Positions 1 through 36,559 of a DNA stretch of 39,508 nucleotides are shown here, in pieces. The notes beneath the pieces were generated by a model. It saw nothing but the letters and a program-made list of their open reading frames with translations, was not told the DNA's origin and searched no databases. The translations under genes were made by a program, and so were the position numbers. Every line of letters starts with the position of its first letter. The first letter of the stretch is position 1. This stretch comes from Escherichia phage RDN8.1: sequence record MN414250.1, one strand, 5' to 3'.

Positions 1-639
1 CTGTACCAACTCAACGGCTACATCTTCGCTATGGAAGTTGGCGGTATGCGTGGTGGTTATGAAGACTCTACGCTGGAAGCCTTGGCTAAGATTGGTCGTA
101 AGTGGAAGGTCAACGAGTACGTCATTGAGGGTAACTTCGGTGATGGTATGTACCTTGAGCTATTCAAGCCTGTAGCGGCCCGTATCCATCCTGCGGCTGT
201 AACTGAAGTGAAGAGTAAGGGTCAGAAAGAACTCCGCATCTGTGACGTTCTGGAGCCTATCATGGGGTCTCACAGACTTATCGTTAACGCTGCTGCCATA
301 GTACAAGACTACCAGTCGGCCTCTGATAAGGATGGTGTTCGTAACCCTATCTACTCTCTCTTCTACCAGATGACACGTATCTCTCGTGAACGTGGAGCCT
401 TGGCACACGATGACAGACTTGATGCGCTGGCTATCGGTGTACAGTTCTTCGTTGAGTCTATGGCTAAGGATGCCAACAAAGGCGAACGTGAAGTCACCGA
501 GGAGTGGCTGGAGGAACAGATGGAGAACCCACGGAAAGGCTTCGAGTCCATCCACACTGAGTTCTGGGACAATGGGGTCCGGGTGACTCACGATACGGAC
601 GACGAGCTTGGACTAGGGTCGTACGTTGCGTTCCACTAG
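1..639 (+). CDS. Large terminase subunit (T7 gp19-like), C-terminal part; 5' end lies at 38024..39508 because the window is circularly permuted
   Basis: Reading frame continuous from window start; translation ([15 protein letters not shown]...LFYQMTRISRERGALAHDDRLDALA) matches recalled T7 gp19 C-terminus; 1..357 identical to 39152..39508. Confidence 0.93.
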   Translation: MYQLNGYIFAMEVGGMRGGYEDSTLEALAKIGRKWKVNEYVIEGNFGDGMYLELFKPVAARIHPAAVTEVKSKGQKELRICDVLEPIMGSHRLIVNAAAIVQDYQSASDKDGVRNPIYSLFYQMTRISRERGALAHDDRLDALAIGVQFFVESMAKDANKGEREVTEEWLEEQMENPRKGFESIHTEFWDNGVRVTHDTDDELGLGSYVAFH

Positions 640-733
640 CTGAATGAATAACTATGGGTGAAAGCTGCATTAATACGCAGTTAGTAACCTATAGTTACTA
701 CCAGTATAACCTACTGTTTTACAAGGAGTTTGG

Positions 734-756
734 ACTTAACTATCACTATAGGGAAG
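734..756 (+). promoter_or_regulatory. Phage RNAP promoter (variant TTAACTATCACTATAGGGAAGA), predicted +1 at 751; phi-OR-like position after terminase
   Basis: Matches the 11-copy promoter motif; T7-type CACTATA-G core. Confidence 0.6.
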
Positions 757-936
757 ACCCCCGGTTACTTATAGTATTACTGTAGTGAATATACATATGC
801 AGACTTTATGCAAGACCTTAGGAGGCAGACTCCGAGTTCTTACCTAAGGCTTGCACCGATGGAAGGAGGGTGATATTAATCATAATCCCTCCAATACAGA
901 TAGTCACCGACCATAGATACAGGAGGTATGTAGCAT

Positions 937-1095
937 ATGGCAAAGACCAAAGCTGTACTTAAAGCTCTGGCGACCAATCGAGCTACATACAGGTTTCTTG
1001 CTGCTGTTCTACTTACTGCTGGCGTTACTGCTGGAAGTCAGTGGGTCGGGTGGGTCGAGACTCTCGTATGTACTCTGGTGTCTGAGTGTCATTAA
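937..1095 (+). CDS. Small hydrophobic protein, 52 aa (T7 gene 19.5 position)
   Basis: ATG 8 nt after AGGAGG; MAKTKAVLKALATNRATYRFLAAVLLTAGVTAGSQWVGWVETLVCTLVSECH; not in ORF track (<60 aa). Confidence 0.3.
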   Translation: MAKTKAVLKALATNRATYRFLAAVLLTAGVTAGSQWVGWVETLVCTLVSECH

Positions 1096-1332
1096 CGCTG
1101 TAATGGTAACAATCAACGAAAGACGGACCTAAGGTCAGTTCATAGCTGACGCTACTCTACTGACCTTAGCTACTGTAGTCAAGGACTTTAGGTAACACCT
1201 TAAGAGAAGCTCACTTAGGGTCATCCTACTTACTGGTCTATCCTAGTGTCGCCTGACCTACGGTCCTTGACCTACAGCAGCTTGGTCCTACAGTAGGGAC
1301 GATGAGTTTTGGACCAAAAGTTTGAGACCACA

Positions 1333-1523
1333 TCTCACAGTTCAAGAACCTCAAGTCTCCCCATAGGCCCTCTTTAAGTCCAGACCAAAGGCCCTACCCC
1401 TAGACCTTCGGTCTAAACTTCAAGTCATTGACCAAAGGTTGACCAGAAGTCTGGACCATCGGTGTCCTATATCTAGTGGTCATGACCCAAGGTTGGGACT
1501 ATATGTTGTGTCCTTGAGTCTCT
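1333..1523. repeat. Putative genome terminus / terminal-repeat region, collapsed to one copy in this assembly; boundaries approximate
   Basis: TCTCACAG at 1333 matches the first bases of the T7 left end; CCCCATAGG and GTGTCC..TCTCTATCTGT blocks resemble recalled T7 terminal-repeat sequence. Confidence 0.4.
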
Positions 1524-1547
1524 ATCTGTATCAGCCTCAAGTCATCA

Positions 1548-1642
1548 CCTACAGTCATCACCTACAGTCTGACAACCTACAGTCTCACAGCCTACAGTCA
1601 TCCACTGGTAATGGGACAACCTACAGTCATAGACCTACGGTC
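1548..1642. repeat. Array of short direct repeats (CCTACAGTC x5 plus GACCTACGGTC), analogous to T7 end-adjacent CCTAAAG repeats
   Basis: CCTACAGTC at 1548, 1561, 1576, 1591, 1620; related GACCTAAGGTC / CCTAAAGTC copies at about 1128, 1678, 1801. Confidence 0.7.
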
Positions 1643-1885: not shown

Positions 1886-1914
1886 TTGACATAGGGTCTA
1901 ACTTTTGGTTTAAT
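1886..1914 (+). promoter_or_regulatory. Host sigma70-type early promoter (T7 A1-like): -35 TTGACA 1886..1891, 17-bp spacer, -10 TTTAAT 1909..1914
   Basis: Consensus -35, 17-bp spacer, near-consensus -10, AT-rich upstream; spacer GTCTAAC as in T7 A1. Confidence 0.6.
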
Positions 1915-2035
1915 AGCTTCCGTCAACACGACACGGCAAACACCGGATAGTGAAGACGCCGGGTCACACGGTTAAGTAGACAGCCTGATAAGTCATACGA
2001 ACAACAGGCAGTGACAAGAAGTAAGAAATAAACGC

Positions 2036-2065
2036 TTGACAAGCAGTAACGACTCAACGTAGTAT
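2036..2065 (+). promoter_or_regulatory. Host sigma70-type early promoter (T7 A3-like): -35 TTGACA 2036..2041, -10 TAGTAT 2060..2065
   Basis: TTGACA + 18 bp + TAGTAT; downstream GTACCACATCGAAACGG resembles recalled T7 A3 region. Confidence 0.5.
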
Positions 2066-2962: not shown

Positions 2963-3160
2963 ATGATGGGTGCACTATTGATAGTCATAGGTTATGGACT
3001 TATCGCCTACGTGCTGGTGAGAGACATCAACAAAGCGCGTAAAGTCTACAAATTCAACTATGTACGTCTGGGCCGCTGGACTGTACGTCAACCTAACGGA
3101 CGATTTATGCGCAACTTAGCGAACGTCTGGGATATAGCAACACTTGGGAGCAAACTGTAA
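2963..3160 (+). CDS. Small early membrane protein (one predicted TM helix); start uncertain (GTG 2948 or ATG 2963/2966)
   Basis: ORF track 2948..3160; hydrophobic GALLIVIGYGLIAYVLV then basic tail; early-region position. Confidence 0.35.
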   Translation: MMGALLIVIGYGLIAYVLVRDINKARKVYKFNYVRLGRWTVRQPNGRFMRNLANVWDIATLGSKL

Positions 3161-3420
3161 TGAAAACCGAATACACTAACAAACCATCTAGCCGTAGCCG
3201 TGTGGAGCAAGCGCACCGTGACATGTTCTTACAGCGCCGCATGAGGGCTGAGGGCCATAAGTCCGAACTAATGTGTCTGGCGTATGGTGGACGACCAATC
3301 ACTGACGATGGCAAACTTCTGGTCTCAGGCTGGAAGGCGATAGACCAACGGTCAACCATCAAGCACACGACTCATGGTGACTTCAGTCATCTTCAAGCTA
3401 ACCCACTGATATGCAAGTGA
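3160..3420 (+). CDS. Hypothetical early protein, 86 aa
   Basis: ATG overlaps upstream stop (TAATGA); fills the gap before gene 1; no recognised motif. Confidence 0.4.
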   Translation: MKTEYTNKPSSRSRVEQAHRDMFLQRRMRAEGHKSELMCLAYGGRPITDDGKLLVSGWKAIDQRSTIKHTTHGDFSHLQANPLICK

Positions 3421-3425
3421 TTCTG

Positions 3426-3448
3426 ACTTAACTATCACTATAGGACTC
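3426..3448 (+). promoter_or_regulatory. Phage RNAP promoter-like sequence upstream of the RNAP gene, predicted +1 at 3443
   Basis: TTAACTATCACTATAGGACTCAAGG; same variant as at 734 and 26754. Confidence 0.5.
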
Positions 3449-3517
3449 AAGGTCTAAGACTCCAAGTGAAAGACCGAAGAGACTTTAAGTGAAAGACTAA
3501 TAACAAGGACTTTAAGT

Positions 3518-6199
3518 ATGAGCGTCATCTCTATTAACAAACACGACTTCTCTGATGTGTCGAACGCCATTGAGCCGTTTAACCTGCTGGCCGACCACTA
3601 CGGGCAAGACCTTGCAGTCAAACAGCTTCAGCTTGAGCATGAGGCATACACTGAAGGCGAGCGACGTTTCATCAAGAACCTTGAGCGACAGACTGAGCGC
3701 GGGGAACTGGCAGACAATCAGGTAGCCAGGCCTCTTATGCAGACTCTGGTCCCTAAGATTGCGCAAGCCGTCAAGGAGTGGCACGAAGGTACAGACGGGA
3801 AGCTATCAACCTCTCGTCCGAGCGTAGCGTTCACCATGTTGAGCACTGAAGAGAAGGCCGTCAAGGACCGCTCTCTGCGCATCTCCTGTGAGTCTGCTGC
3901 GGTTATCATACTGAAGGTCGTCCTCTCCAAGCTGGTCAAGCCTGAAGGGATACCGATTACACCGATGGCCTCCGCGATAGGTCGCACACTTGAGGATGAA
4001 ATCCGCTTCGGTCGCATCCGTGACAAGGAGCAGGAGCACTTCAAGAAGGCGATAGCTGAGAACCTGAACAAGCGAGCCGGGGCATCCTACAAGAAAGCCT
4101 ACATGCAAGCGGTTGAGACCTCCATGCTGGAGCAAGGCCAACTGGAAGATGCGTGGGGAACTTGGAGTCCGACCGAGGCTGTCCACGTTGGAATCAAGAT
4201 GCTTGAGATTGTCATCCAGTCAACACAACTGGTAGAGCTTAAGCGTTATGGTGCTGGCAATGCTGCGGCTGACGTTGAGATGGTCCACCTGTCAGACTTC
4301 TGGGTCAAGAAGATGGCTCAGCGTGGCTTCTCTCTTGCGGGAATCGCTCCAGTCTACCAGCCATGCGTCGTTCCACCTAAGCCGTGGACTGGTGTCGTAG
4401 GCGGTGGGTATTGGGCCAAAGGTCGCAGACCATTGCCTCTGATTCGCTTGGGGTCTAAGTCTGCGGTAGCACGTTACGAAGACGTGTACATGCCTGAAGT
4501 CTATGACGCTGTGAACATCATCCAGAATACACCTTGGAAAGTTAACAAGAAGGTTCTGGACGTGGTGAACATGGTCGAGAAGCTGAACAACACGCCTATT
4601 GATGACATCCCTCAGATGGAACCGCTGAAGCCTGAGGACTATGCGGGTGAGACTGAAGAAGAACTCAAGGCATGGAAGAAAGCTGCTGCTGGTATCTATC
4701 GTCGCGAGAAGGCCCGACAGTCACGCAGATTGTCACTGAGCTTTATCGTTAACCAAGCGAACAAGTTTTCTCAGTTTAAGGCCATCTGGTTCCCGTATAA
4801 CATGGACTGGCGCGGGCGCGTCTACGCTGTACCGATGTTCAACCCTCAGGGTAACGACATGCAGAAGGGCCTCCTTACTCTGGCGGTAGGCAAGCCTATT
4901 GGTGCTGACGGTTTCAAATGGCTGAAGGTACACGGCGCAAACTGTGCCGGTGTCGATAAAGTCACCTTCGAGGAGCGCATCAAGTGGGTGGAAGACAACC
5001 ACGACAACATCATGGCTGCTGCTAAAGCACCGATGGACAGTATTGAGTGGTGGGGAAGGTTAGACTCTCCGTTCTGCTTCCTTGCGTTCTGCTTCGAGTA
5101 TGCTGGCGTAATGCACCACGGACTGTCCTACAACTGCTCGCTACCGATAGCGTTCGATGGGTCCTGCTCTGGTATTCAGCACTTCAGCGCGATGCTTCGT
5201 GACCACATCGGTGGACATGCAGTAAACCTGACGCCTTCCGGTAAGGTACAAGACATATACCGCATTGTATCTGACCGCATTGAGGAGGAGCTTAAAGTCC
5301 TGCTGGTTAACGGTACGGACAACGAGATGATAACCCACGAGGACAAGAAAACTGGCGAGATTACCGAGCGTCTCAAGCTGGGGACACGAGAGCTGTCCCG
5401 TCAGTGGCTGACCTACGGTATGTCACGCAAGGTCACTAAGCGTTCGGTCATGACTCTAGCCTACGGGTCGAAAGAGTACGGCTTCGCAGACCAAGTTTAC
5501 GAGGACATCGTGATGCCAGCGATTGACTCAGGGTCTGGAGCTATGTTCACTGAGCCAAGCCAAGCGTCTCGCTTCATGGCTAAGATGATTTGGGAAGCTG
5601 TGAGTGTGACCGTAGTTGCTGCGGTTGACGCGATGAAGTGGCTTCAAGGTGCTGCCAAGCTGCTGGCTGCTGAAGTGAAGGACAAGAAGACTGGCGAAAT
5701 CCTGAAGCCTTGCCTTCCGGTACACTGGGTCACACCTGATGGTTTCCCGGTCTGGCAGGAATATCGCAAGAAGGATACAACTCGTCTGAACCTGATGTTC
5801 TTAGGGTCATTCAACCTTCAGCCTACAGTCAACAAAGGCACGAAGAAAGAGCTGGACAAGCACAAGCAGGAGTCAGGCATTAGCCCGAACTTCGTCCACT
5901 CACAAGATGGTAGCCACCTACGCAAGACTGTAGTCCACACTCACCGCAAGTACGGCGTGATGTCGTTCGCAGTGATTCACGATAGTTTCGGGACCATACC
6001 TGCTGACGCTGAGTATCTGTTCCGTGGCGTCCGTGAGACGATGGTCGAGACCTACCGCGATAACGATGTGCTGCTTGACTTCTACGAGCAGTTCGAATAC
6101 CAGCTTCACGAGAGCCAGCGCGACAAGTTGCCTGAGCTTCCGAAGAAAGGTAAACTGAATATCGAAGACATCTTGTCTTCAGACTTTGCATTCGCTTAA
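3518..6199 (+). CDS. Single-subunit DNA-directed RNA polymerase (T7 gp1 homologue)
   Basis: 893 aa; long blocks match recalled T7 RNAP (NKFSQFKAIWFPYNMDWRGRVYAV, PFCFLAFCFEYAG, FAVIHDSFGT, C-terminal SDFAFA). Confidence 0.98.
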   Translation: MSVISINKHDFSDVSNAIEPFNLLADHYGQDLAVKQLQLEHEAYTEGERRFIKNLERQTERGELADNQVARPLMQTLVPKIAQAVKEWHEGTDGKLSTSRPSVAFTMLSTEEKAVKDRSLRISCESAAVIILKVVLSKLVKPEGIPITPMASAIGRTLEDEIRFGRIRDKEQEHFKKAIAENLNKRAGASYKKAYMQAVETSMLEQGQLEDAWGTWSPTEAVHVGIKMLEIVIQSTQLVELKRYGAGNAAADVEMVHLSDFWVKKMAQRGFSLAGIAPVYQPCVVPPKPWTGVVGGGYWAKGRRPLPLIRLGSKSAVARYEDVYMPEVYDAVNIIQNTPWKVNKKVLDVVNMVEKLNNTPIDDIPQMEPLKPEDYAGETEEELKAWKKAAAGIYRREKARQSRRLSLSFIVNQANKFSQFKAIWFPYNMDWRGRVYAVPMFNPQGNDMQKGLLTLAVGKPIGADGFKWLKVHGANCAGVDKVTFEERIKWVEDNHDNIMAAAKAPMDSIEWWGRLDSPFCFLAFCFEYAGVMHHGLSYNCSLPIAFDGSCSGIQHFSAMLRDHIGGHAVNLTPSGKVQDIYRIVSDRIEEELKVLLVNGTDNEMITHEDKKTGEITERLKLGTRELSRQWLTYGMSRKVTKRSVMTLAYGSKEYGFADQVYEDIVMPAIDSGSGAMFTEPSQASRFMAKMIWEAVSVTVVAAVDAMKWLQGAAKLLAAEVKDKKTGEILKPCLPVHWVTPDGFPVWQEYRKKDTTRLNLMFLGSFNLQPTVNKGTKKELDKHKQESGISPNFVHSQDGSHLRKTVVHTHRKYGVMSFAVIHDSFGTIPADAEYLFRGVRETMVETYRDNDVLLDFYEQFEYQLHESQRDKLPELPKKGKLNIEDILSSDFAFA

Positions 6200-6486: not shown

Positions 6487-6509
6487 CCTAAACTATCACT
6501 ATAGGATTA
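6487..6509 (+). promoter_or_regulatory. Phage RNAP promoter (phi1.1-like), predicted +1 at 6504
   Basis: CCTAAACTATCACTATAGGATTAG. Confidence 0.65.
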
Positions 6510-8113: not shown

Positions 8114-8525
8114 AGTAGACGAGAGGTCAGCCTCAGGGCTGTCCCTTCACTCTGGACGTAAGGTAGGCAGTAAGAAAGCATCCGGTTATTGGACAGTGAA
8201 CGTCAGGACGCCGTGGGGACGCAAGCACCTACAGGTCCATCGGGTAATCTGGGAGTTGACATATGGCCCAATACCAGATGGCATGGAGATTGACCACATT
8301 GACCGAGACCCTTCCAACAACAGGCTTTCCAATCTGCGACTGGTGACTCACTCCGAGAACAACCAGAACAAAGGACAGATGTCCACCAACACTACCGGAG
8401 AGCGCCACATCTCCAAGGTTAAAGGTCGAAAGCTCTATTGCATCAAGAAGGTGATTAACGGAGAGCGTGTGGTCCGGTACACCAAGACCATAGCCGAGGC
8501 GGTAGCCTTAAGAGATTCATTATAA
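8043..8525 (+). CDS. HNH endonuclease; start uncertain (first in-frame ATG 8043 lies inside ligase; GTG 8196 also possible)
   Basis: [44 protein letters not shown]; paralogous to 37591..38031. Confidence 0.65.
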   Translation: MAHCGTRHSTNGEGLRTILQSRFKVDERSASGLSLHSGRKVGSKKASGYWTVNVRTPWGRKHLQVHRVIWELTYGPIPDGMEIDHIDRDPSNNRLSNLRLVTHSENNQNKGQMSTNTTGERHISKVKGRKLYCIKKVINGERVVRYTKTIAEAVALRDSL

Positions 8526-8585
8526 CGTCAACCCAGTGGTCTTCGGACTGCTGGGTTTCTTTGCGTCTGGACCCAGCGCGATGGG

Positions 8586-8608
8586 ACTAAACTATCACTG
8601 TAGGACCA
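8586..8608 (+). promoter_or_regulatory. Phage RNAP promoter variant (CACTGTAGG core), predicted +1 at 8603
   Basis: CTAAACTATCACTGTAGGACC; G replaces the usual A at -3. Confidence 0.5.
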
Positions 8609-8640
8609 CACTCGGTCCAAGACTTTAAGGAGCTAACCTT

Positions 8641-9322: not shown

Positions 9323-9481
9323 ATGACTGAGGTTGAGAAGAAATACATCGTGGAGCTTGAGGGTCGCGTTCAGTCCTTCGAGGTTCCGGTGTACGCAAAG
9401 TCTCTTGAAGAGGCTACCCTGAAGTCCCAAGAGTATGAGGACGCTGGGTTTGTGGTCGGACGGATTCGTCCTGAGACCTAA
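9323..9481 (+). CDS. Gp2-like inhibitor of host RNA polymerase (start may be ATG 9305)
   Basis: [14 protein letters not shown]...[10 protein letters not shown] matches recalled T7 Gp2; AGGAG 9 nt upstream of ATG 9323. Confidence 0.7.
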
Positions 9482-9499
9482 ACTATCACTGTAGGATAG
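9477..9499 (+). promoter_or_regulatory. Phage RNAP promoter variant (CACTGTAGG core), phi2.5-like, predicted +1 at 9494
   Basis: CCTAAACTATCACTGTAGGATAG; overlaps Gp2 stop codon. Confidence 0.5.
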
Positions 9500-9538: not shown

Positions 9539-10237
9539 ATGGCTAAAGAGCAACTGAAGACTTTCACCACTCCGGTAGCTGGTATCGTTGAGCCTTACGC
9601 ATGGCTAAACAAAGCAGACACCAAGTTTACCGAGCGTGGTGAGCATAAGGTTAACCTGACTTTCAGTCTGGATGACCCGAAGGTACGCAAGATGATTGAC
9701 GTCTTGCAGAAGATTCACGACGATGCGTATGCGAAAGCACTCGCAGACCACGAGAAGAACCCGCCTCAGGTTCAGCGTGGCAAGAAGCCTATTGAACCAC
9801 GAGAAGGCGACATGCCGTGGATTGAGAACGGTGATGGCACTGTCACCCTGAAGTTTAAATGCTATGCGTCTTACCTGAAAGACGGCAAGTCCGAGCCTAT
9901 CGTATTACGGTTCTACGACACCGATGCTAAACTCATCCGTGACGTCCCGAATATTGGCACCGGGTCTAAGCTGAAAGTCAAGTTCAAAGTCCTGCCGTTC
10001 AAGTGGAACGCTGCGACTGGTGCGAGCGTTAAACTGCAACTCGAATCTGTGCTGCTGGTCGAACTCAAAGAGTGGTCCGGCGATGGCACTGGTGGTGATG
10101 GTGGCTGGGGTGATGACGAAGACATCGGGTCTGGTGGCTACAAGGCTTCGACCGATGGCGACTTCGGGTCTGACGACTTCGGCGGTGATGCTGATGGTCA
10201 GGACTCTGCGTCCGATGCTGGTGACTACGACTTCTAA
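9539..10237 (+). CDS. Single-stranded DNA-binding protein (T7 gp2.5 homologue)
   Basis: 232 aa; GSKLKVKFKVLPFKWNAATGASVKLQLESVLLVEL and acidic C-terminus ending DF match recalled T7 gp2.5. Confidence 0.95.
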   Translation: MAKEQLKTFTTPVAGIVEPYAWLNKADTKFTERGEHKVNLTFSLDDPKVRKMIDVLQKIHDDAYAKALADHEKNPPQVQRGKKPIEPREGDMPWIENGDGTVTLKFKCYASYLKDGKSEPIVLRFYDTDAKLIRDVPNIGTGSKLKVKFKVLPFKWNAATGASVKLQLESVLLVELKEWSGDGTGGDGGWGDDEDIGSGGYKASTDGDFGSDDFGGDADGQDSASDAGDYDF

Positions 10238-10239
10238 TC

Positions 10240-10692
10240 GTGGCTGCATGGACACCAAAACGGGGGCACTCTGTGGGTGCCTACCGCTCTGGACTTGAAG
10301 CCAAGAACCAGCAGTGGCTGGAACAGAACGGCGTCAAAGCGGAGTACGAAAGCCATTATATCAACTATGTGATTCCGGCTTCCGACCACAAGTACACACC
10401 AGACTTCATCCTTCCGAACGGAATCATCGTCGAGACCAAAGGTATCTTCGACAGTGAGGACCGTAAGAAGCATATGCTGGTGCGCGAGCAGCACCCTGAG
10501 CTGGACATCCGGTTCGTGTTCTCGTCCTCCCGCTCCAAGCTGTACAAAGGGTCCCCGACCACGTATGGCGCATGGTGCGAAAAGAACGGCTTTAAGTTTG
10601 CCGACAAGTTTATCCCGGTTGAGTGGCTGAAAGAGGCGACTGTACGTCTGCCCTCAGGTATACTCATCCCAAAGAAAGGAGTTAAGAAATGA
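10240..10692 (+). CDS. Endonuclease I / Holliday-junction resolvase (T7 gp3 homologue), GTG start
   Basis: VGAYRSGLE, YTPDFILPNGIIVETKG, REQHPELDIRFVFSSSRSKLYKGSPT match recalled T7 gp3. Confidence 0.9.
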   Translation: MAAWTPKRGHSVGAYRSGLEAKNQQWLEQNGVKAEYESHYINYVIPASDHKYTPDFILPNGIIVETKGIFDSEDRKKHMLVREQHPELDIRFVFSSSRSKLYKGSPTTYGAWCEKNGFKFADKFIPVEWLKEATVRLPSGILIPKKGVKK

Positions 10693-11141
10693 CTCGTAAA
10701 GCAATCATAGTTGACCTGACGTATGGTGGTGCATATTCAGACAACTTCAAGGTAGGACAGGAGGTCTTCGTTAAGTTCTCCCATAAGTCCCTCAGCCCTA
10801 GTGATGGAGACCTGTGGCGTGTGTCGCACGATGGTGTCAAGTGGCTGGACACAATGTATGGTCGCCGCCTGAAGTTTATCGCTTCTGGTGAGAAACCTCA
10901 AGTCCTGCCAGCTTCGAGCGTACCGCCTGTGACTGTGAAGCGTGAAGTCCTGACCATCGACAAGATTGGAGTGGGCCAGACGTTCATCGTTCATGGAAAG
11001 CCTGAAGAAGTGTACGTGAAGATTAGTAACTCACACGTCTTCAACCATAAGCGCCTCCAGATGCACGCTACGGACGCACAGCGCTTCACCCAACACCTGA
11101 ATCTCGTAATCGTTGAGCTGGTGGTGTACAATGGTAAGTAA
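10689..11141 (+). CDS. Hypothetical protein, 150 aa, inserted between endonuclease I and lysozyme
   Basis: ATG with AAAGGAG RBS; overlaps neighbours by a few nt; T7 has genes 3 and 3.5 adjacent. Confidence 0.6.
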   Translation: MTRKAIIVDLTYGGAYSDNFKVGQEVFVKFSHKSLSPSDGDLWRVSHDGVKWLDTMYGRRLKFIASGEKPQVLPASSVPPVTVKREVLTIDKIGVGQTFIVHGKPEEVYVKISNSHVFNHKRLQMHATDAQRFTQHLNLVIVELVVYNGK

Positions 11142-11589
11142 GGTTCAGTTCAAACCGCGTACAGTAACTGACGCAATCTTCGTCCACTGTAGTGCGACCC
11201 AGCCGTCTCAGGACATCGGGGTAGACACTATCCGCATGTGGCACAAGCAGCAGGGCTGGCTGGACGTAGGCTACCACTTCGTCATCAAGCGAGATGGCAC
11301 TGTGGAAGAGGGTCGCCCGGTCGATGTAGTAGGGTCCCACGTTAAGGATTGGAACTCCCGGTCCGTAGGCGTCTGCCTTGTTGGTGGAATCGACGCTAAG
11401 GGCAAGTTTGAAGCCAACTTCACGCCTGCTCAGATGAACGCTCTACGAAACAAGCTGGCTGAACTTAAGGCCCTGTATCCTCAGGCAGACATCAAGGCTC
11501 ACCACGACGTAGCACCAAAGGCCTGCCCAAGTTTTGACTTGCAGCGCTGGCTGAACACTAACGAAATGGTCACTTCCGACCGAGGCTAA
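11131..11589 (+). CDS. Lysozyme / N-acetylmuramoyl-L-alanine amidase (T7 gp3.5 homologue)
   Basis: VQFKPRTVTDAIFVHCSAT, GWLDVGYHFVIKRDGTVE, AHHDVAPKACPSFDL, C-terminal VTSDRG match recalled T7 lysozyme. Confidence 0.93.
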   Translation: MVSKVQFKPRTVTDAIFVHCSATQPSQDIGVDTIRMWHKQQGWLDVGYHFVIKRDGTVEEGRPVDVVGSHVKDWNSRSVGVCLVGGIDAKGKFEANFTPAQMNALRNKLAELKALYPQADIKAHHDVAPKACPSFDLQRWLNTNEMVTSDRG

Positions 11590-11607
11590 TAACAAAGGAG
11601 GCATTAT

Positions 11608-12006: not shown

Positions 12007-12029
12007 ACTAAACTATCACCTTAGGGATG
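12007..12029 (+). promoter_or_regulatory. Degenerate phage promoter-like sequence (CACCTTAGGG core), upstream of gene 4
   Basis: CTAAACTATCACCTTAGGGATGG; two core mismatches. Confidence 0.3.
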
Positions 12030-18286: not shown

Positions 18287-18309
18287 ACTAAACTATCACT
18301 ATAGGGACT
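18287..18309 (+). promoter_or_regulatory. Phage RNAP promoter (phi6.5-like), predicted +1 at 18304
   Basis: CACTAAACTATCACTATAGGGACT. Confidence 0.65.
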
Positions 18310-19945: not shown

Positions 19946-21506
19946 ACGTGAAGGATTTGCTGCTGAAGGCGCGAAGTCAGTTTATGATAGATTGAAGAAC
20001 GGACGACAGCCTTACGAGACCCGCGCACAGAACTGCGCTGCCGTGACCATCCCGTCACTGTTTCCTAAGGAGTCCGACAACTCGTCTACGGAATATACAA
20101 CCCCGTGGCAGGCTGTAGGTGCTCGATGTCTGAATAACCTTGCGGCTAAGCTGATGCTGGCCCTGTTCCCTCAGTCACCGTGGATGCGACTTACGGTCTC
20201 CGAATATGAGGCCAAGACCTTGAGTCAGGACTCTGAGGCTGCTGCCCGTGTTGACGAGGGGCTGGCTATGGTCGAGCGTGTATTGATGGCCTACATGGAG
20301 ACTAACAGTTTCCGTGTCCCATTGTTTGAAGCTCTGAAGCAGCTTATCGTCTCCGGTAACTGTCTGCTCTACATTCCAGAGCCTGAACAGGGAACCTACA
20401 GTCCCATGCGAATGTACCGCTTAGTGTCTTACGTTGTTCAACGTGATGCATTCGGTAACATCTTGCAGATTGTGACTCTCGACAAGGTAGCGTTTAGTGC
20501 TCTACCGGAAGACGTGAAGTCTCAACTCAACGCAGACGACTATGAGCCTGACACCGAGCTTGAAGTGTATACGCACATCTACCGTCAGGACGACGAGTAT
20601 CTGCGATACGAGGAAGTGGAAGGCATTGAGGTAACAGGGACCGATGGTTCCTACCCGCTGACTGCGTGTCCGTACATCCCGGTACGAATGGTTCGACTGG
20701 ATGGTGAAGACTACGGTCGTTCTTACTGCGAGGAGTATCTGGGAGACCTGAACTCGCTGGAGACGATTACAGAAGCTATCACCAAAATGGCTAAGGTAGC
20801 CTCCAAGGTGGTGGGCCTCGTTAACCCGAACGGCATCACGCAACCTCGACGTCTGAACAAGGCGGCTACAGGTGAGTTCGTTGCTGGTCGCGTTGAGGAC
20901 ATCAACTTCCTGCAACTGACGAAAGGTCAGGACTTTACGATTGCTAAGTCGGTGGCTGATGCTATCGAGCAACGTTTAGGCTGGGCCTTCCTTCTTAATA
21001 GCGCTGTTCAGCGTAATGCCGAGCGGGTAACTGCTGAAGAGATTCGTTATGTTGCTGGCGAACTGGAGGCGACCTTAGGTGGCGTGTACTCAGTACAGTC
21101 ACAAGAGCTTCAGTTACCTATCGTCCGTGTGCTGATGAACCAGCTTCAGTCTGCTGGCATGATTCCTGACCTTCCGAAAGAAGCGGTAGAGCCTACGGTC
21201 TCCACTGGTCTGGAAGCGTTAGGTCGTGGTCAAGACTTAGAGAAGCTGACTCAGGCAGTCAACATGATGACCGGGCTACAGCCTCTGCAACAGGACCCAG
21301 ACATTAACTTGCCGACCCTGAAGCTGCGACTTCTGAATGCCTTGGGCATTGACACTGCTGGTCTACTGCTGACTCAGGACGAGAAGCTGCAACGTATGGC
21401 TGAACAATCTGCTCAAGGAGCTGTGGTCAACGGTGCGTCTGCTGCTGGTGCTAACATGGGCGCTGCCGTAGGTCAAGGAGCTGGTGAGGACATGGCTCAA
21501 GCCTAA
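19938..21506 (+). CDS. Portal (head-tail connector) protein (T7 gp8 homologue)
   Basis: 522 aa; GAKSVYDRLKN, YETRAQNCA, PSLFPK, YRLVSYVVQRDAFGN, RVTAEEIRYVAGELE match recalled T7 gp8. Confidence 0.97.
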   Translation: MAEREGFAAEGAKSVYDRLKNGRQPYETRAQNCAAVTIPSLFPKESDNSSTEYTTPWQAVGARCLNNLAAKLMLALFPQSPWMRLTVSEYEAKTLSQDSEAAARVDEGLAMVERVLMAYMETNSFRVPLFEALKQLIVSGNCLLYIPEPEQGTYSPMRMYRLVSYVVQRDAFGNILQIVTLDKVAFSALPEDVKSQLNADDYEPDTELEVYTHIYRQDDEYLRYEEVEGIEVTGTDGSYPLTACPYIPVRMVRLDGEDYGRSYCEEYLGDLNSLETITEAITKMAKVASKVVGLVNPNGITQPRRLNKAATGEFVAGRVEDINFLQLTKGQDFTIAKSVADAIEQRLGWAFLLNSAVQRNAERVTAEEIRYVAGELEATLGGVYSVQSQELQLPIVRVLMNQLQSAGMIPDLPKEAVEPTVSTGLEALGRGQDLEKLTQAVNMMTGLQPLQQDPDINLPTLKLRLLNALGIDTAGLLLTQDEKLQRMAEQSAQGAVVNGASAAGANMGAAVGQGAGEDMAQA

Positions 21507-21524
21507 ACTATCACTATAGGAACA
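21502..21524 (+). promoter_or_regulatory. Phage RNAP promoter (phi9-like), predicted +1 at 21519
   Basis: GCCTAAACTATCACTATAGGAACA; overlaps portal stop. Confidence 0.65.
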
Positions 21525-22536: not shown

Positions 22537-22559
22537 ACTAAACTATCACTATAGGGAGA
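22537..22559 (+). promoter_or_regulatory. Phage RNAP promoter (phi10-like), full consensus with GGGAGA start, predicted +1 at 22554
   Basis: TAAACTATCACTATAGGGAGACC; followed by structured leader and AGGAG RBS. Confidence 0.75.
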
Positions 22560-26736: not shown

Positions 26737-26787
26737 AAAGGCCTATAGTTTCTACTTAACTATCACTATAGGGACTATAGGCCCTTT
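26737..26787 (+). other. Inverted repeat bracketing the phi13 promoter (AAAGGCCTATAG / CTATAGGCCCTTT); possible R13-like processing structure
   Basis: 12-bp complementary arms with one bulged C around promoter 26754..26776. Confidence 0.35.
26754..26776 (+). promoter_or_regulatory. Phage RNAP promoter (phi13-like), predicted +1 at 26771
   Basis: CTTAACTATCACTATAGGGACT. Confidence 0.6.
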
Positions 26788-33100: not shown

Positions 33101-34024
33101 GAGCACAGCCTGACCGGAAGTAAGCGTAAGTTTGATGACCGCTGGTTGAAGACCGCTGGTATCTCCGATGACCAATGGAAGGGCATCAAGTCCCTCATCC
33201 GTGAGTCAGTGACTCGTGGTCCAGACGGGAAGTACACCATCAAGGATAAGAAGGCGTTCAGTCAGGACCCAAGGGCTATGGACCTCTGGCGTATGGGTGA
33301 CACCATCGCTGATGAGACCCTGCTACGTCCGCACAAGCTGAGCAACATGGATGCCAAATCGTATGGCCCGGTGGCAAAGACTGTTCTTCAGTTCAAGAAC
33401 TTCGTTATCAAGTCCATCAACGGTCGAACCATGCGTACATTCTACAATGCTACCAAGAACAACCGGGCGATTGATGCTGCGTTATCCACGGTTATGTCTA
33501 TGGGCCTTGCTGGGGTGTACTATATGGCTCAGGCGCACATCAAGGCTTACGCGATGCAGGATGGTCGAGACAAGGAGTATCTGAAGCAAGCCCTCAACCC
33601 GACGATGATTGGCTATGCGGCCCTGTCCCGTAGCTCTCACCTCGGTGGGCCTCTTGGGGTCGCCAACATTCTGGGTGGAATCGCTGGGTATGAGGACACT
33701 AAGTTGCTCCGTTCGTCTATCCTCCCGCGTTCACCTACTGAGAAGCCTGAACGTGCCATTACCTATGGTGCTGCTAAGAGCGACCCGGTGATGAACGTGG
33801 TGGGGAACTTCCTTGAGCAGGTCCCGGCCTTTGGCTACGCTGCTAACGTCGGGGCTTCGGCTTATAACTTGGCTGGATACCTCAAGGCTGATACCCGTGT
33901 GAGCGAGCGGGACTACATGACCGGGATGTATAACACCTTCCGTGAGCTGGTCCCGAACGACCCGATTACTCAGAAGCTGCTGCTTGGAACCTTTGAGGAA
34001 CAGGGTATTCACATCAAAGACTAA
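30137..34024 (+). CDS. Internal virion protein D (T7 gp16 homologue) with non-T7 N-terminal domain of about 130 aa
   Basis: 1295 aa; from about residue 190 long blocks match recalled T7 gp16 (VRSPTGMQSGASGK, AYGISH..QF..SS..EENI.GLVG.ENNSFLEARNLFDSD, DAALS...SMGLAG); N-terminus (GIRNNNPGNIR...FHETGSRYD) does not. Confidence 0.92.
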   Translation: MATRGIRNNNPGNIRVSKDQWEGMTGDDGAFVTFDSPESGVRALGKNLLSYGRQGYDSIEKIINRWAPPNENDTQAYIDSVVAATGIPATQSLDLSNPDTLSSLAQAISFHETGSRYDPEVYQQGVARALNGISPKTPPVSANVFDALTEGLKAKPKVALGENLPTAAGLNIEGQAPEAPNESFGEMFYKATGETMQEREDRSTWFGFGAATEAEVKNSMVGVAIRAGQTEDSLDVIGDVFNPTRWNNHKWSREELDQIRNAGVLPQYYGVITGGSPQNLTELINLALENQKLDQEKAKAGTGAQLAAGVIGAGVDPLTYVPIAGQAGKGGKLVNKMFTVAAQSGALAGVSEMARTSVAGGDAHVAEAILGGALFGGGMTAIADGLGRALGRNTNEFAGPATRLEARETARNVDGQDLSRLPIQEGEQTFSHQGVKFADVPNEPGSVRLEDGSILIGENPLNPKTRQVFDEVIEPERAAAGVNLGGLTEIGLKLLRSENPEIRGVAADLVRSPTGMQSGASGKIGTTASDVFERLRAVDHRFYNDIDDAVTEALKDPYFQTAFWRDSGAFRQDIYQRVSMAIEDGSGNLKAELTPGELKVYDLLKSQFDAKREMMENPAMFGRPDAKSIFPGSRFKGTYVPHVYSKQMKELYINELGNPEALQEAIKKSWLTSYASRPEVKKRVDEALLEADPTLTPEGLAAAVDKYANDKAYGISHTEQFERSSVMEENINGLVGLENNSFLEARNLFDSDMSIVLPNGQTFSVNNLREWDMDKIVPAYNRRVNGDIAIMAGTGKTTKDMKDLVETMMNKAGDDGKLKGEVSTLRDTLKILTGRARRDGADDAALATVMRTMTDLSFFAKNAYMGVQNLTEIGGMLARGNVRAMLHGIPMFRDLAFRNKKVGASEIKDLHNVVFGKELDDSIRPSKQDVIDRLRAYSDLSKPVATALGSAKYYTGELAVRSPFTKVLNGTTNYLLDAGRQGFLSDIVEHSLTGSKRKFDDRWLKTAGISDDQWKGIKSLIRESVTRGPDGKYTIKDKKAFSQDPRAMDLWRMGDTIADETLLRPHKLSNMDAKSYGPVAKTVLQFKNFVIKSINGRTMRTFYNATKNNRAIDAALSTVMSMGLAGVYYMAQAHIKAYAMQDGRDKEYLKQALNPTMIGYAALSRSSHLGGPLGVANILGGIAGYEDTKLLRSSILPRSPTEKPERAITYGAAKSDPVMNVVGNFLEQVPAFGYAANVGASAYNLAGYLKADTRVSERDYMTGMYNTFRELVPNDPITQKLLLGTFEEQGIHIKD

Positions 34025-34042
34025 ACTATCACTATAGGAAAC
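34020..34042 (+). promoter_or_regulatory. Phage RNAP promoter (phi17-like), predicted +1 at 34037
   Basis: CTAAACTATCACTATAGGAAAC; overlaps gp16 stop. Confidence 0.65.
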
Positions 34043-34084: not shown

Positions 34085-36559
34085 ATGGCAGACAACAAGA
34101 CCCTCATCAAGTATCCCACTGGTGAGACACAATATCGTATTCCATTCGATTACCTCGCAAGGTCTTTCGTAAAGGTAAGCCTTGAGGTCTCCACCGACTC
34201 CACTCTTAGTTATCCGCTGACACCGGGTAATGACTATCGGTTCCTGAATGCCACTACCATTGAAATCCTCATTCCGCAGGGTTCCTATGATGTGCTGCAA
34301 ATTCGTCGATTCACTGACACTACTCCTCTGGTCGGATTCCGCGATGGCTCAGTGCTGACAGCTAACGACCTTACAGTCTCTGAGCTTCAGGCAATCCATA
34401 TCGCAGAAGAAGGCCGTGACCAAACGTTAGAGCTGACCGAGAGCTACGTTGAGACTGCTGCTAATATCCGCGACGAAGTTAAGGAGATGCTGGAGGAAAT
34501 GCGGGATGACTTAATCATTCAGCGTGTGTATAAGGATAGCTTTGAGAAGGGTCAGACACTCAACCTTCCCGGCGAGTCCCTGCGACTGGAAGCTACTAAC
34601 ATCTACTATGAGTGGACGGGTAGCTTCCCTAAAGTAGTACCTGCTGGCTCTACACCTGATACGACTGGTGGTGTGACTGCTGGTGCGTGGCGTATGGTAG
34701 GTAACAGCAATATGGAAGCGTTCATGCTCAGTGGGTCTTACCATGTGTTCTCAACCATAGATGACCTGAAGTCCCTTAAGATTAACCCTTCGGTGACAGT
34801 CAACATGCAGGTAGGCTCCAGAGCGATGACCCTTAAGCTGGTTCAGGCAGCTGGTAAGTTCTACAACAAGCGTGTCTACTGGGACATAGTTGCAGCGGAA
34901 AACCCGAACACGTTGAGCGTTCAGCTTGTTAATGGGCTGTGGGCTGCCATGGTAGTGGAAGACGAGCTGTACCCTGCGGTCTTTGGATGGGGCGAGAAGG
35001 ATGACCCTGCTGCTAATGCCGCTGCTTACCATAGAGCATGTGCTGTGGCTGAGGCAAACCCTAACGTCCACACCATTCGTCTACACGCTGGCGCCTTCCG
35101 CAGTGATGGTATAGTGGCTCAGGTTGCACGTAGACGCTTCCGGTTCACTGGGGCTGGCTGGGATAATACCTTTATCCTCTCTGAGTCCTCTGACATCTCG
35201 TTCCACCACAAAGGGTTCAACGAGTCTAACCCAGCACTGGACAAGCGATACTTCCAGCAGATTGTCGATGGCTTCACCGTAGACGGTCAGATGGGTACAC
35301 GTAAAGTCCAAGCCGCTCAACGTACACTCTCCACAGTCCACTACGCCGAGCTTGGCTATAAGTCTGTAAACCATAGGGTGTCACAGGTGGATATTTGTGG
35401 ACTAGTTGTCAAGTGGTACGGTATGACTGGTGCTGGTGTGTATGACGGTGTGTGGTCACAGCATGGCCTACGAGTACGCTACAACTCTATCAAGCTGAAT
35501 GGCTATATTGGTGGAGCGCCTAATCAAATCAACACCATGATTGGTGGCTTCCGTACCAAGCTTATAGCCCCTGCTAAGGCTGGTGACACCACGATTCAGG
35601 TAGAGAACCTGCGCAACGGTCAGACCTACGACATCCTAGAGGTTGGCGGTGGTACACTTGAGGCTCCACGCATAAAGTCAAGAACAGGGAACACCATCAC
35701 ACTGTTCGCCCCTCTGGAGTACGACCACACGGTTAACGCAGTGGTTAGACTTCCGGTTGTTGGGACTGAGGTTCAGGGTACTCTTGAGGTTGGTATCATC
35801 TACATTGCTGACGCTGAGGCTACAACCGTTCATGGCATCTACTCAGAGGAATCTAAGTTCTACCTTTCTGGACTTCTTCAAGGTTGTGAGATTCACGGCA
35901 ACAGTATTGCGGAAGCAAACCCTACTGTACAGGTTGACTCTAACGTAGACCCTAGAAGTCACATCCGAATTGTGTCTAACAACACGTACTTCCCAGTGAC
36001 AATCGCAGTGGCCGATGAGACCGGAGCAGTAAACAACAGGCTTGACCTCAAGCGCTTCCCTAACATCGAGATTAAGGGCAACACACGCGCTCAGAACTCA
36101 ATCTGGGTAAATGGTGTATACTCCTTTAGTTCTCTCCGAGTATACCGAACGTATGACTCTGGGATGAGCGATGTGTCAATGACCACTATGGAATTCGACG
36201 GTCTATCTGCTCAGTTGGCTGGCGGAGCTGTAAGTGATGCCCTCCTGCTCGCATCGTTCCCAGCAACAAGGCCGTATAAATGGGATGGCTACACCTTTGA
36301 CCTTACGGCTACTTATCGTCGAGTTGGTAAGATGGGTGGCGGCACACTCAAACGTGCTGGTCACGCGCTAACCGATGGTACGACCCACGATGTGAACGTT
36401 CAACGCTACGTCTCAACTGGCAGTACTTGGTCTGAGGCTGGCGTAGACCTTCTGTTCGGTGCCACTGGTACCCGCGCGTCTGTTACTGCTCGAGGTGAGG
36501 CTAGTGGTGCTTGGCCTACGAGTATGTCAATCAGAGGTATCATCACCCACGCAAACTGA
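34085..36559 (+). CDS. Tail fibre / tailspike: T7 gp17-like N-terminal adaptor domain fused to a large non-T7 C-terminal domain (putative receptor-binding or polysaccharide-degrading domain)
   Basis: 824 aa; N-terminal about 150 aa (YRIPFDYLARSFVKV, FRDGSVLTANDL, LQAIHIAEEGRD) match recalled T7 gp17; remainder shows no T7 similarity. Confidence 0.88.
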   Translation: MADNKTLIKYPTGETQYRIPFDYLARSFVKVSLEVSTDSTLSYPLTPGNDYRFLNATTIEILIPQGSYDVLQIRRFTDTTPLVGFRDGSVLTANDLTVSELQAIHIAEEGRDQTLELTESYVETAANIRDEVKEMLEEMRDDLIIQRVYKDSFEKGQTLNLPGESLRLEATNIYYEWTGSFPKVVPAGSTPDTTGGVTAGAWRMVGNSNMEAFMLSGSYHVFSTIDDLKSLKINPSVTVNMQVGSRAMTLKLVQAAGKFYNKRVYWDIVAAENPNTLSVQLVNGLWAAMVVEDELYPAVFGWGEKDDPAANAAAYHRACAVAEANPNVHTIRLHAGAFRSDGIVAQVARRRFRFTGAGWDNTFILSESSDISFHHKGFNESNPALDKRYFQQIVDGFTVDGQMGTRKVQAAQRTLSTVHYAELGYKSVNHRVSQVDICGLVVKWYGMTGAGVYDGVWSQHGLRVRYNSIKLNGYIGGAPNQINTMIGGFRTKLIAPAKAGDTTIQVENLRNGQTYDILEVGGGTLEAPRIKSRTGNTITLFAPLEYDHTVNAVVRLPVVGTEVQGTLEVGIIYIADAEATTVHGIYSEESKFYLSGLLQGCEIHGNSIAEANPTVQVDSNVDPRSHIRIVSNNTYFPVTIAVADETGAVNNRLDLKRFPNIEIKGNTRAQNSIWVNGVYSFSSLRVYRTYDSGMSDVSMTTMEFDGLSAQLAGGAVSDALLLASFPATRPYKWDGYTFDLTATYRRVGKMGGGTLKRAGHALTDGTTHDVNVQRYVSTGSTWSEAGVDLLFGATGTRASVTARGEASGAWPTSMSIRGIITHAN

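What the first reader, a model, noticed from the sequence alone, without database searches (positions are those of the whole stretch)
3426..3448. Phage-type promoter directly upstream of the phage RNA polymerase gene
A sequence matching the phage promoter family lies about 75 bp upstream of gene 1. In T7 the polymerase gene is transcribed only by host RNAP. A cognate promoter in front of the polymerase gene would create positive autoregulation, or at least late read-through transcription of gene 1.
Basis: seen in the sequence. Interest (0 to 1): 0.45.

Follow-up and report, generated by a model that had tools for sequence, protein, structure and literature searches.

The report
Phage promoter before its polymerase gene
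A genuine phage-type promoter does sit 75 bases in front of the phage's own RNA polymerase gene, so the enzyme can probably boost its own production, but the identical element is already annotated in close relatives and is a standard trait of this phage genus.

Summary
Observation confirmed. Window 3426-3448 (ACTTAACTATCACTATAGGACTC, +1 G at 3443) is a full-length match to this phage's own promoter family. It lies in the 97-bp gap between a gp0.38-like gene and gene 1 (RNAP, 3518-6199).

The window is a circularly permuted K1F-like phage (Kayfunavirus). A leave-one-out matrix scores the site at 30.2 bits, against 31.6-35.9 for the nine other promoters and a genome mean of -27.

The element is present in all 21 close IMG/VR relatives with sequence upstream of gene 1. 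The 100-bp promoter plus leader is in 218 GenBank phage records. It is the most conserved segment of its neighbourhood.

Where relatives changed RNAP specificity loop and promoter type (GW1-like ACCCT type; Citrobacter phage CR8), the copy before gene 1 changed with them. This argues strongly that the cognate polymerase recognises it.

T7-, T3- and K11-like phages lack it and carry an R1-type hairpin there instead.

It is not new. The identical 23-mer is annotated "promoter phi" in RefSeq EcoDS1, and the homologous site "predicted promoter" in CR8. Pseudomonas phage LUZ100 has a mapped promoter before its RNAP with positive feedback proposed.

Self-amplification of gene 1 transcription is a reasonable inference and remains unmeasured. 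Low interest.

The parts
3426..3448 (+). phi1: phage-RNAP promoter, -17..+6, predicted start G3443, initially transcribed sequence GGACTC (class II-like, not GGGAGA)
   Evidence: 30.2 bits leave-one-out. Identical to the EcoDS1 annotated 'promoter phi' 2244-2266.
3443..3517 (+). 75-nt leader of the phi1 transcript. GACTCAAGGTC motif at its 5' end (shared with the leader after the 6504 promoter), two GACTTTAAG copies (3481-3489, 3508-3516), Shine-Dalgarno AAGGA at 3505-3509.
   Evidence: Mean pairwise identity 0.83 among 21 Kayfunavirus sequences.
3432..3496 (+). Imperfect hairpin whose 5' arm is the promoter core (TCACT..AGG) and whose 3' arm is CTT..AGTGA. It can form fully only in read-through (host-made) transcripts. 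It lies where T7/T3/K11 relatives have the R1 RNase III hairpin. Function not established.
   Evidence: -18.5 kcal/mol, z -3.06, 0 of 200 shuffles. An 11-bp perfect version occurs in L012-type phages. The consensus fold is weak with no covariation.
3518..6199 (+). gene 1, single-subunit RNA polymerase, 893 aa
   Evidence: Pfam RNA_pol 6.5e-106, RPOL_N 8.8e-15. Specificity loop TRLNLMFLGSFNLQ.
3160..3420 (+). Upstream early gene, gp0.38-like (86 aa). Its stop codon is 5 nt before the promoter.
1886..1922 (+). Host sigma70-type early promoter (homologue of the EcoDS1 annotated host promoter 469-505). Source of the first gene 1 transcripts.
2036..2065 (+). Second host-type early promoter candidate (TTGACA-18-TAGTAT, 10 of 12 consensus matches)
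8530..8557 (+). Early terminator TE homologue (AACCCAGTGGTCTTCGGACTGCTGGGTT), end of the host-RNAP early operon that contains phi1 and gene 1
6487..6509 (+). Next phage promoter (phi1.1-type), followed by an R1.1-like hairpin. Member of the family used for comparison.
734..756 (+). phiOR-equivalent promoter. It appears 'upstream' of gene 1 only because the assembly is circularly permuted; the true left end is at 1333.
8586..8608 (+). Phage promoter (phi1.6-type)
9477..9499 (+). Phage promoter (phi2.5-type)
12007..12029 (+). Probable variant promoter ACTAAACTATCACCTTAGGGATG (25.8 bits)
18287..18309 (+). Phage promoter (phi6.5-type)
21502..21524 (+). Phage promoter (phi9-type)
22537..22559 (+). 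Phage promoter (phi10-type, GGGAGA start)
26754..26776 (+). Phage promoter (phi13-type)
34020..34042 (+). Phage promoter (phi17-type)

Best explanation
3426-3448 is a functional promoter (phi1) for the phage's own single-subunit RNA polymerase, placed inside the early operon directly in front of gene 1.

Proposed sequence of events:
1. Host sigma70 RNAP starts at the early promoters near the left end (about 1886 and 2036). It reads through genes 0.x and gene 1 and yields the first polymerase. This step is inferred from homology with EcoDS1 annotation and from the absence of terminators.
2. The new polymerase recognises phi1, starts at G3443 and transcribes gene 1 and the genes beyond it. Gene 1 mRNA synthesis thus becomes independent of the host enzyme and self-reinforcing. 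Recognition is strongly supported by covariation; initiation and its quantitative effect are inferred.
3. The GGACTC start, rather than GGGAGA, resembles T7 class II promoters. Output is therefore probably moderate and shut down later, as in T7, by the gp3.5 lysozyme homologue. This step is inferred from T7 biology.

The element is a fixed, already annotated trait of Kayfunavirus and Caroctavirus, not a peculiarity of this genome.
For: Match quality:
- Full consensus match from -17 to +2, same strand as all other promoters, intergenic.
- Leave-one-out score 30.2 bits, within the family range and far from background.

Conservation:
- Present 75-102 nt before gene 1 in all 21 IMG/VR loci with RNAP at least 78% identical and with upstream sequence.
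- The 100-bp promoter plus leader is found in 218 GenBank phage records, against 221 records with RNAP at least 80% identical.
- The 23-mer is the best conserved segment locally: 0.935 mean pairwise identity, against 0.80 for the upstream CDS, 0.71 for the spacer, 0.83 for the leader and 0.88 for gene 1.

Covariation with the polymerase:
- L018 and L039 (GW1-like) have a T3-like specificity loop (..RLDL..TFRLQ) and a different AT-rich recognition loop. All their promoters, including the one before gene 1, read ATTAAACCCTCACTATAGG.
- CR8 has yet another loop, and the AAGGAAGGTACACTATAGG type also sits before its gene 1.

Context:
- No terminator-like site between the host promoters, phi1 and gene 1.
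- Independent annotators marked the same site as a phage promoter in EcoDS1 (identical 23-mer) and CR8.
- A mapped transcription start at the analogous phi1 of LUZ100 shows that such an arrangement is used in nature (PMC10134795).
Against: - No experimental 5'-end, in vitro transcription or expression data for any Kayfunavirus were found.
- The size of any feedback is unknown.
- The start sequence GGACTC is not the optimal GGGAGA, so the promoter may be weak.
- From general knowledge: synthetic T7 autogenes are toxic, and T7 variants with gene 1 placed behind T7 promoters did not gain fitness (Dubendorff and Studier 1991; Endy et al. 2000). A strong loop is therefore not obviously advantageous.
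- The benefit could lie in the genes downstream of gene 1, or in replication, rather than in polymerase dosage.
Confidence: 0.72

Rival explanations
1. phi1 is a real phage-RNAP promoter, but its selected role is not polymerase autoregulation. It may serve as the first class II promoter of the genome. Possible roles are to take over transcription of the whole early/middle region once the host RNAP is inhibited, to speed transcription-coupled genome entry, or to prime replication as T7 phiOL and phi1.1A/B do. Extra gene 1 mRNA would then be a by-product.
For: - T7-like loci have a promoter 26 nt after gene 1 (+2677 from the ATG, i.e. phiOL) plus phi1.1A/B. This window has only one promoter (6504) in that interval and has phi1 on the other side of gene 1.
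- phi1 transcripts must continue into genes 1.1-1.3, because no terminator is seen before TE at 8530.
- The class II-like start sequence is consistent with this role.
Against: - The 6504 promoter already provides entry to the class II genes.
- By the time any polymerase exists, gene 1 and probably 6504 are already inside the cell, so phi1 adds little for genome entry.
- The leader is only about 60% A+T and shows no T7-origin-like AT-rich block.
- Nothing distinguishes this rival from autoregulation at sequence level. The two are not mutually exclusive.
Confidence: 0.2
2. The conservation reflects an RNA element, not a promoter. The element would be the R1-type RNase III or processing hairpin of the early polycistronic mRNA, which in T7-like phages sits at exactly this place. 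The promoter resemblance would be incidental or vestigial.
For: - T7-, T3- and K11-like loci have a strong hairpin directly before gene 1.
- The window's 3432-3496 folds better than all 200 shuffles (z -3.06).
- The leader begins with GACTCAAGGTC, the 5' half of the T7-group RNase III motif also seen after the 6504 promoter.
- L012-type relatives have an 11-bp perfect inverted repeat between promoter core and leader.
Against: - A hairpin cannot explain why positions -17 to -8 switch to the ACCCT type or the AAGGAAGGTA type exactly when the RNAP specificity loop and all other promoters switch.
- The consensus fold is weak (-4.1 kcal/mol) with zero compensatory pairs.
- The 3' half of the RNase III motif (GGCCTTTATGAT) is absent.
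- The hairpin may coexist with the promoter but does not replace it.
Confidence: 0.04
3. The site is a chance or decaying promoter copy with no function.
For: None beyond the non-optimal +3 to +6 bases.
Against: - Zero chance expectation.
- Highest local conservation.
- Presence in 218 records.
- Co-switching with polymerase specificity.
Confidence: 0.02

Closest known systems
Annotated 'promoter phi' at 2244-2266 of Enterobacteria phage EcoDS1 (RefSeq NC_011042, Kayfunavirus)
   Same: Identical 23-mer ACTTAACTATCACTATAGGACTC, same position between gp0.38 and gene 1, near-identical leader.
   Different: Nothing of substance. The window is another isolate of the same genus, about 94% nt identity to K1F over the gene 1 region. 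The K1F GenBank records themselves carry no promoter features, though K1F has the identical site at +1 = 2491.
Predicted promoter 3356-3378 before gene 1 of Citrobacter phage CR8 (HG818824, Caroctavirus)
   Same: Own-type promoter between gene 0.38 and gene 1, about 90-100 nt before the ATG. RNAP 78% identical.
   Different: Different specificity region (AAGGAAGGTACACTATAGG), a GGGG start and a different leader.
phi1 of Pseudomonas phage LUZ100 (PMC10134795)
   Same: Phage-specific promoter directly upstream of the phage RNAP gene. Start site mapped by ONT-cappable-seq. The authors propose bootstrapping by host RNAP followed by a positive feedback loop.
   Different: Distant T7-relative with a lysogeny module, where a MarR-like repressor is proposed to gate phi1. 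Nothing comparable is seen here.
phi-A8 of Vibrio phage phiA318 (PMC4099482) and phi1 of phiIBB-PF7A (PMC3080317)
   Same: Predicted phage promoters upstream of the kinase plus RNAP genes (phiA318) or of gene 1 (phiIBB-PF7A). 'Autoregulation' was suggested for phiA318. I found own-type promoters about 125 nt before gene 1 in Pifdecavirus Roomu-1 and Ghunavirus P421.
   Different: Other genera or subfamilies and other promoter sequences. All are predictions only.
T7 early region (gene 1 transcribed from host promoters A1-A3, R1 RNase III site before gene 1, first T7 promoter phiOL just after gene 1) and the synthetic 'T7 autogene'
   Same: Same overall genome plan: host promoters, early operon, TE after ligase, about 10-17 rightward phage promoters. 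The autogene is the engineered equivalent of a cognate promoter driving gene 1 (general knowledge; the term is in use, for example PMC6395690).
   Different: T7, T3 and K11 relatives have no phage promoter within 500 nt upstream of gene 1 and have a strong hairpin there instead. Here the promoter is natural and fixed.

Membership tests
T7-group (Studiervirinae) single-subunit RNAP promoter | About 23-bp element (-17..+6) matching the genome's own repeated promoter consensus | tested here: met
   all of -17..+2 fit the consensus (A/C)CT(A/T)AACTATCACT(A/G)TAGG. Score 30.2 bits against a family range of 31.6-35.9.
T7-group (Studiervirinae) single-subunit RNAP promoter | Same orientation as the genes, and located between genes or at the 3' end of the preceding gene | tested here: met
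   + strand like all others. It begins 5 nt after the stop of ORF 3160-3420.
T7-group (Studiervirinae) single-subunit RNAP promoter | Cognate polymerase encoded in the same genome | tested here: met
   (RNA_pol, RPOL_N). (specificity loop and AT-rich recognition loop present).
T7-group (Studiervirinae) single-subunit RNAP promoter | Specificity positions (-8 to -12, and -13 to -17) co-vary with the polymerase recognition loops across relatives | tested here: met
   three specificity types (ACTAT with N..N loop; ACCCT with D..R loop; CR8 type). In each, the gene-1-upstream copy is of the genome's own type.
T7-group (Studiervirinae) single-subunit RNAP promoter | Initiation at +1 G by the phage RNAP in vitro or in vivo | not testable with these tools
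   No transcript data found for Kayfunavirus.
Positive autoregulatory loop ('autogene' arrangement) | Cognate promoter upstream of, and co-oriented with, the polymerase gene, with no intervening terminator | tested here: met
   75-nt leader, and no terminator-like site between 3443 and 3518 or within gene 1.
Positive autoregulatory loop ('autogene' arrangement) | Independent bootstrap expression of the polymerase | tested here: met
   Host-type promoters at 1886-1922 and 2036-2065 are homologous to EcoDS1-annotated host promoters, with read-through possible. This is sequence-level evidence only.
Positive autoregulatory loop ('autogene' arrangement) | Polymerase-dependent increase of gene 1 mRNA or protein | not testable with these tools
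   Requires infection time-course with a phi1 mutant.
T7-type RNase III processing site (R1) | Extended irregular hairpin (about two helical turns with an internal loop) immediately upstream of gene 1 | tested here: inconclusive
   3432-3496 folds at -18.5 kcal/mol, z -3.06; the consensus fold is weak with no compensatory pairs.
T7-type RNase III processing site (R1) | Conserved arms CUCAAGGUC ... GGCCUUUAUGAU as at other sites of the group | tested here: not met
   Only the 5' arm motif (GACTCAAGGTC) is present. The 3' arm motif is absent.

The most novel reading that the evidence does not exclude
The promoter and the R1-position hairpin form one dual-use element. The promoter core (TCACTATAGG) is also the 5' arm of a hairpin that exists only in host-made read-through transcripts (11 perfect base pairs in L012-type phages). 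Host-made and phage-made gene 1 mRNAs would then differ in 5' structure, and hence in RNase III processing, stability or translation. That would give the phage a built-in switch that tunes or caps the positive feedback. A first computational test found no consistent difference in predicted accessibility of the ribosome-binding region between the two transcript forms in seven phages. Any effect would therefore have to act through processing or stability.
Probability: 0.1. Interest if true: 0.45.

Novelty: already known. Interest (0 to 1): 0.18.

Why it matters
The finding matters only modestly. T7 is the textbook model, and there gene 1 is strictly a host-transcribed early gene. This window and its relatives show that a whole, very common genus of T7-like coliphages, plus at least three other genera, keeps a cognate promoter in front of gene 1.

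The textbook 'host RNAP only' rule is therefore a T7/T3/K11 peculiarity rather than a group rule. This is relevant when K1F-type polymerase/promoter pairs are used as orthogonal parts, and when these phages are engineered or modelled. Gene 1 expression should not be assumed to stop with host shut-off.

The co-switching of this promoter with polymerase specificity is a clean natural example of polymerase-promoter co-evolution. None of this is new in kind, and the element is already in public annotation.

Tried and rejected
(1) RNase III site in the phi1 transcript proper (3443-3530). The fold is no better than shuffles (z +0.37). No Rfam family matches anywhere in the window.

(2) Conserved RNA structure across 12 relatives. 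RNAalifold gives -4.1 kcal/mol with no compensatory pairs. The hairpin is therefore kept only as a weak, unexplained feature.

(3) Differential translation. I tested whether the ribosome-binding region is more open in host read-through RNA than in phi1-initiated RNA. Base-pair probabilities in seven phages show no consistent direction. Rejected.

(4) The second 'upstream' promoter at 751. This is an artefact of the circular permutation of the assembly; it is the phiOR equivalent.

(5) Host-type promoter overlapping the site. None is found in 3300-3520.

(6) Literature:
- The K1F genome paper (J Bacteriol 2005) and Chen and Schneider 2005 are not held, so I could not check whether they discuss this site.
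- Searches for Kayfunavirus/K1F promoter discussions or transcript maps gave nothing specific.
- A 2026 genome note lists the repeat at the 3' end of the gene preceding the RNAP gene, without comment (PMC13298934).

Full report
**What the window is.** Megablast of 2900-6300 hits 431 phage records. The best hits are about 94-95% identical and belong to K1F-like coliphages (genus Kayfunavirus). Alignment with K1F (AM084414) shows that the window is a circular permutation of a T7-like genome:
- Window 1-1400 corresponds to K1F 38117-39589.
- Window 1333 corresponds to K1F position 1, with the typical TCTCACAG left end.
- Gene 1 (893 aa; Pfam RNA_pol and RPOL_N) is 3518-6199.
- The preceding ORF, 3160-3420, is the gp0.38 homologue.

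**The observation.**
- Positions 3426-3448 read ACTTAACTATCACTATAGGACTC. With G3443 as +1 this is -17..+6 of a T7-type promoter, 75 nt before the ATG, exactly as reported.
- The window contains ten such sites, all on the + strand, at the positions expected from K1F: before genes 1.1, 1.6, 2.5, 6.5, 9, 10, 13 and 17, plus the phiOR equivalent at 751.
- Chance expectation for the 23-mer with up to 3 mismatches is 0.00.
- A matrix built from the other nine sites scores this one at 30.2 bits. The others score 31.6-35.9, the next candidates 25.8 and 16.1, and the background mean is -26.9 with sd 8.3.

**Is it functional? Comparative evidence.** I fetched 80 IMG/VR loci encoding relatives of the polymerase.
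- Every locus with RNAP at least 78% identical and with sequence upstream of gene 1 has a promoter of its own type 75-102 nt before gene 1: 20 Kayfunavirus-like loci plus L016, which is Citrobacter phage CR8 (confirmed de novo with repeated k-mers).
- In GenBank, the 100-bp promoter plus leader is found at 80% coverage or more in 218 phage records. This essentially equals the 221 records whose RNAP is at least 80% identical.
- Among 21 Kayfunavirus sequences the 23-mer is the most conserved local segment, with mean pairwise identity 0.935. The comparison values are 0.80 for the gp0.38 CDS, 0.71 for the 8-nt spacer, 0.83 for the leader and 0.88 for the first 600 nt of gene 1.

**The strongest argument is covariation.**
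- L018 and L039 are GW1/Ro103C3lw-like. Their specificity loop reads ..TRLDLMFLGTFRLQ.., with D and R as in T3, where the window has ..TRLNLMFLGSFNLQ... Their AT-rich recognition loop also differs.
- All of their promoters, including the one before gene 1, read ATTAAACCCTCACTATAGG rather than ACTTAACTATCACTATAGG.
- CR8 has a third loop and a third promoter type (AAGGAAGGTACACTATAGG), again also before gene 1.
- A sequence that tracks the polymerase's recognition loops is being selected for recognition by that polymerase.

**Contrast with T7.** T7-like (63% RNAP identity), T3-like and K11/KP32-like (58-59%) loci have no cognate promoter within 500 nt upstream of gene 1.
- Their first promoter lies at +2677 or +2748 from the ATG, which is the phiOL position just after gene 1.
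- At the place occupied here by phi1 they have a strong hairpin. In T3-like loci this hairpin carries the repeated GGTGCCCTTTATGAT arm, so it is the R1 RNase III site.
- T7 is not representative, however. Pifdecavirus Roomu-1 and Ghunavirus P421 each have their own repeated promoter motif about 125 nt before gene 1.
- Morganella phage MP2 instead has a near-consensus sigma70 promoter there.

**Anatomy and likely mechanism.**
- The early operon is intact. Host-type promoters at 1886-1922 and 2036-2065 align with promoters annotated in EcoDS1.
- No terminator-like site occurs before gene 1.
- The TE homologue is at 8530-8557, after the ligase gene and an inserted HNH endonuclease ORF.
- Gene 1 is therefore first transcribed by host RNAP. 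Once polymerase exists it can start at G3443 and transcribe gene 1 and the genes beyond. This is a positive loop, and gene 1 transcription becomes independent of the host enzyme.
- The start sequence GGACTC resembles T7 class II rather than class III (GGGAGA) promoters. By analogy with T7, it should then be moderate in strength and sensitive to the gp3.5 lysozyme homologue, which the window retains (K1F 9928-10630 aligns to window 10890-11592).
- Recognition is well supported. Initiation, strength and physiological effect are inferred.

**A secondary feature.**
- The promoter core is the 5' arm of an imperfect hairpin at 3432-3496 (-18.5 kcal/mol, z -3.06). This hairpin can form fully only in read-through transcripts.
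- In L012-type phages the promoter has A at -3, and the leader changes so that an 11-bp perfect stem (UAUCACUAAAG/CUUUAGUGAUA) forms.
- The leader starts with GACTCAAGGTC, the 5' half of the group's RNase III motif, which is also seen after the 6504 promoter.
- However, the consensus fold is weak with no compensatory pairs, the 3' half of the motif is missing, and the phi1 transcript alone folds no better than shuffles.
- A test of whether the two transcript forms differ in ribosome-site accessibility was negative.
- I treat the hairpin as a possible remnant or variant of R1. It is not established.

**Comparison with what is known.**
- The identical 23-mer is annotated 'regulatory, promoter, phi' at 2244-2266 of RefSeq NC_011042 (EcoDS1), immediately before gene 1.
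- CR8 (HG818824) carries a 'predicted promoter' at the homologous place.
- K1F itself has the identical site (+1 at 2491), although its records lack promoter features.
- A 2026 Kayfunavirus genome note lists the repeat at the 3' end of the gene preceding the RNAP gene (PMC13298934).
- The concept has been described elsewhere. LUZ100 has a mapped phi1 before its RNAP with a proposed positive feedback loop (PMC10134795). phiA318 has a promoter before its kinase and RNAP genes, with 'autoregulation' suggested (PMC4099482). phiIBB-PF7A lists a phi1 (PMC3080317).
- The engineered counterpart is the T7 autogene (general knowledge).
- I could not read the K1F genome paper or Chen and Schneider 2005.

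**Verdict.** The autoregulation reading is reasonable but untested, and it is not separable by sequence from a 'first class II promoter' role. The feature is a fixed and already annotated genus trait with published precedents, so novelty is 'already known' and interest is low (0.18). The residual open points are the quantitative role of the loop and the meaning of the promoter-containing hairpin.

Noticed in passing
window 1-1530: The assembly is circularly permuted. Window 1-1400 matches the right end of K1F, and the true genome left end (TCTCACAGTTCAAG...) is at 1333. A CTATCTGT motif identical to the 'concatemeric junction' annotated in EcoDS1 is at 1522-1529. The terminal repeat appears only once.
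   Followed up: partly
window 1540-1640: Six or so tandem-like copies of (A/G)CCTACAGTC just inside the left end, like the short repeats annotated in CR8 ((acctacagtcaac)3).
   Followed up: no
window 12007-12029: Probable 11th phage promoter with a variant core (ACTAAACTATCACCTTAGGGATG, 25.8 bits). It is followed at once by a strong hairpin, GGGATGGGACCATGAGTCCTGTCCC.
   Followed up: partly
window 8118-8525: An HNH endonuclease ORF (Pfam HNH_3, 1.5e-23) lies between the ligase gene and the early terminator TE (8530-8557). This stretch has no counterpart in K1F.
   Followed up: partly
window 34085-36559: gp17 is an 824-aa tailspike with a T7-tail N-terminal adaptor plus a TSP1/Gp66 N-terminal domain. 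It is not homologous to the K1F endosialidase, so the receptor and host range differ from K1F.
   Followed up: partly
L018 10001-12664 and L039 10001-12664 (IMG/VR; GW1/Ro103C3lw-like): Inside an otherwise Kayfunavirus RNAP (88-89% identical), the specificity loop and the AT-rich recognition loop are T3-like. All promoters in these genomes have switched to ATTAAACCCTCACTATAGG. This is a natural polymerase/promoter specificity swap.
   Followed up: partly
L012 2406-2476 (also L013, L014, L020, L021): The promoter before gene 1 has A at -3 (CACTAAAGG). Together with a changed leader it forms an 11-bp perfect inverted repeat, TATCACTAAAG/CTTTAGTGATA.
   Followed up: partly
L088 about 3470-3505 (Morganella phage MP2): A near-consensus host promoter (TTGACA-17-TATTAT) sits directly upstream of gene 1 instead of a phage promoter. 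This is a different way to boost gene 1 transcription.
   Followed up: no
L087 3852 (Pseudomonas phage Roomu-1) and L089 3852 (Pseudomonas phage P421): Both have their own repeated promoter motif about 125 nt upstream of gene 1, followed by hairpin-prone leaders. The phi1 arrangement is therefore spread over several Studiervirinae genera.
   Followed up: partly
window 3481-3489, 3508-3516, 8621-8629: GACTTTAAG occurs 4 times in the window against 0.19 expected, twice in the gene 1 leader and once just before another ribosome-binding site. It may be a leader or translation-initiation motif of this phage group.
   Followed up: no
L086 about 2940-2960 and four other places (Vibrio phage phiA318): A repeated palindromic element, TCTCACACTGTGAGACAA, occurs upstream of the RNAP gene and at four other sites. 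It is unrelated to the annotated promoters.
   Followed up: no
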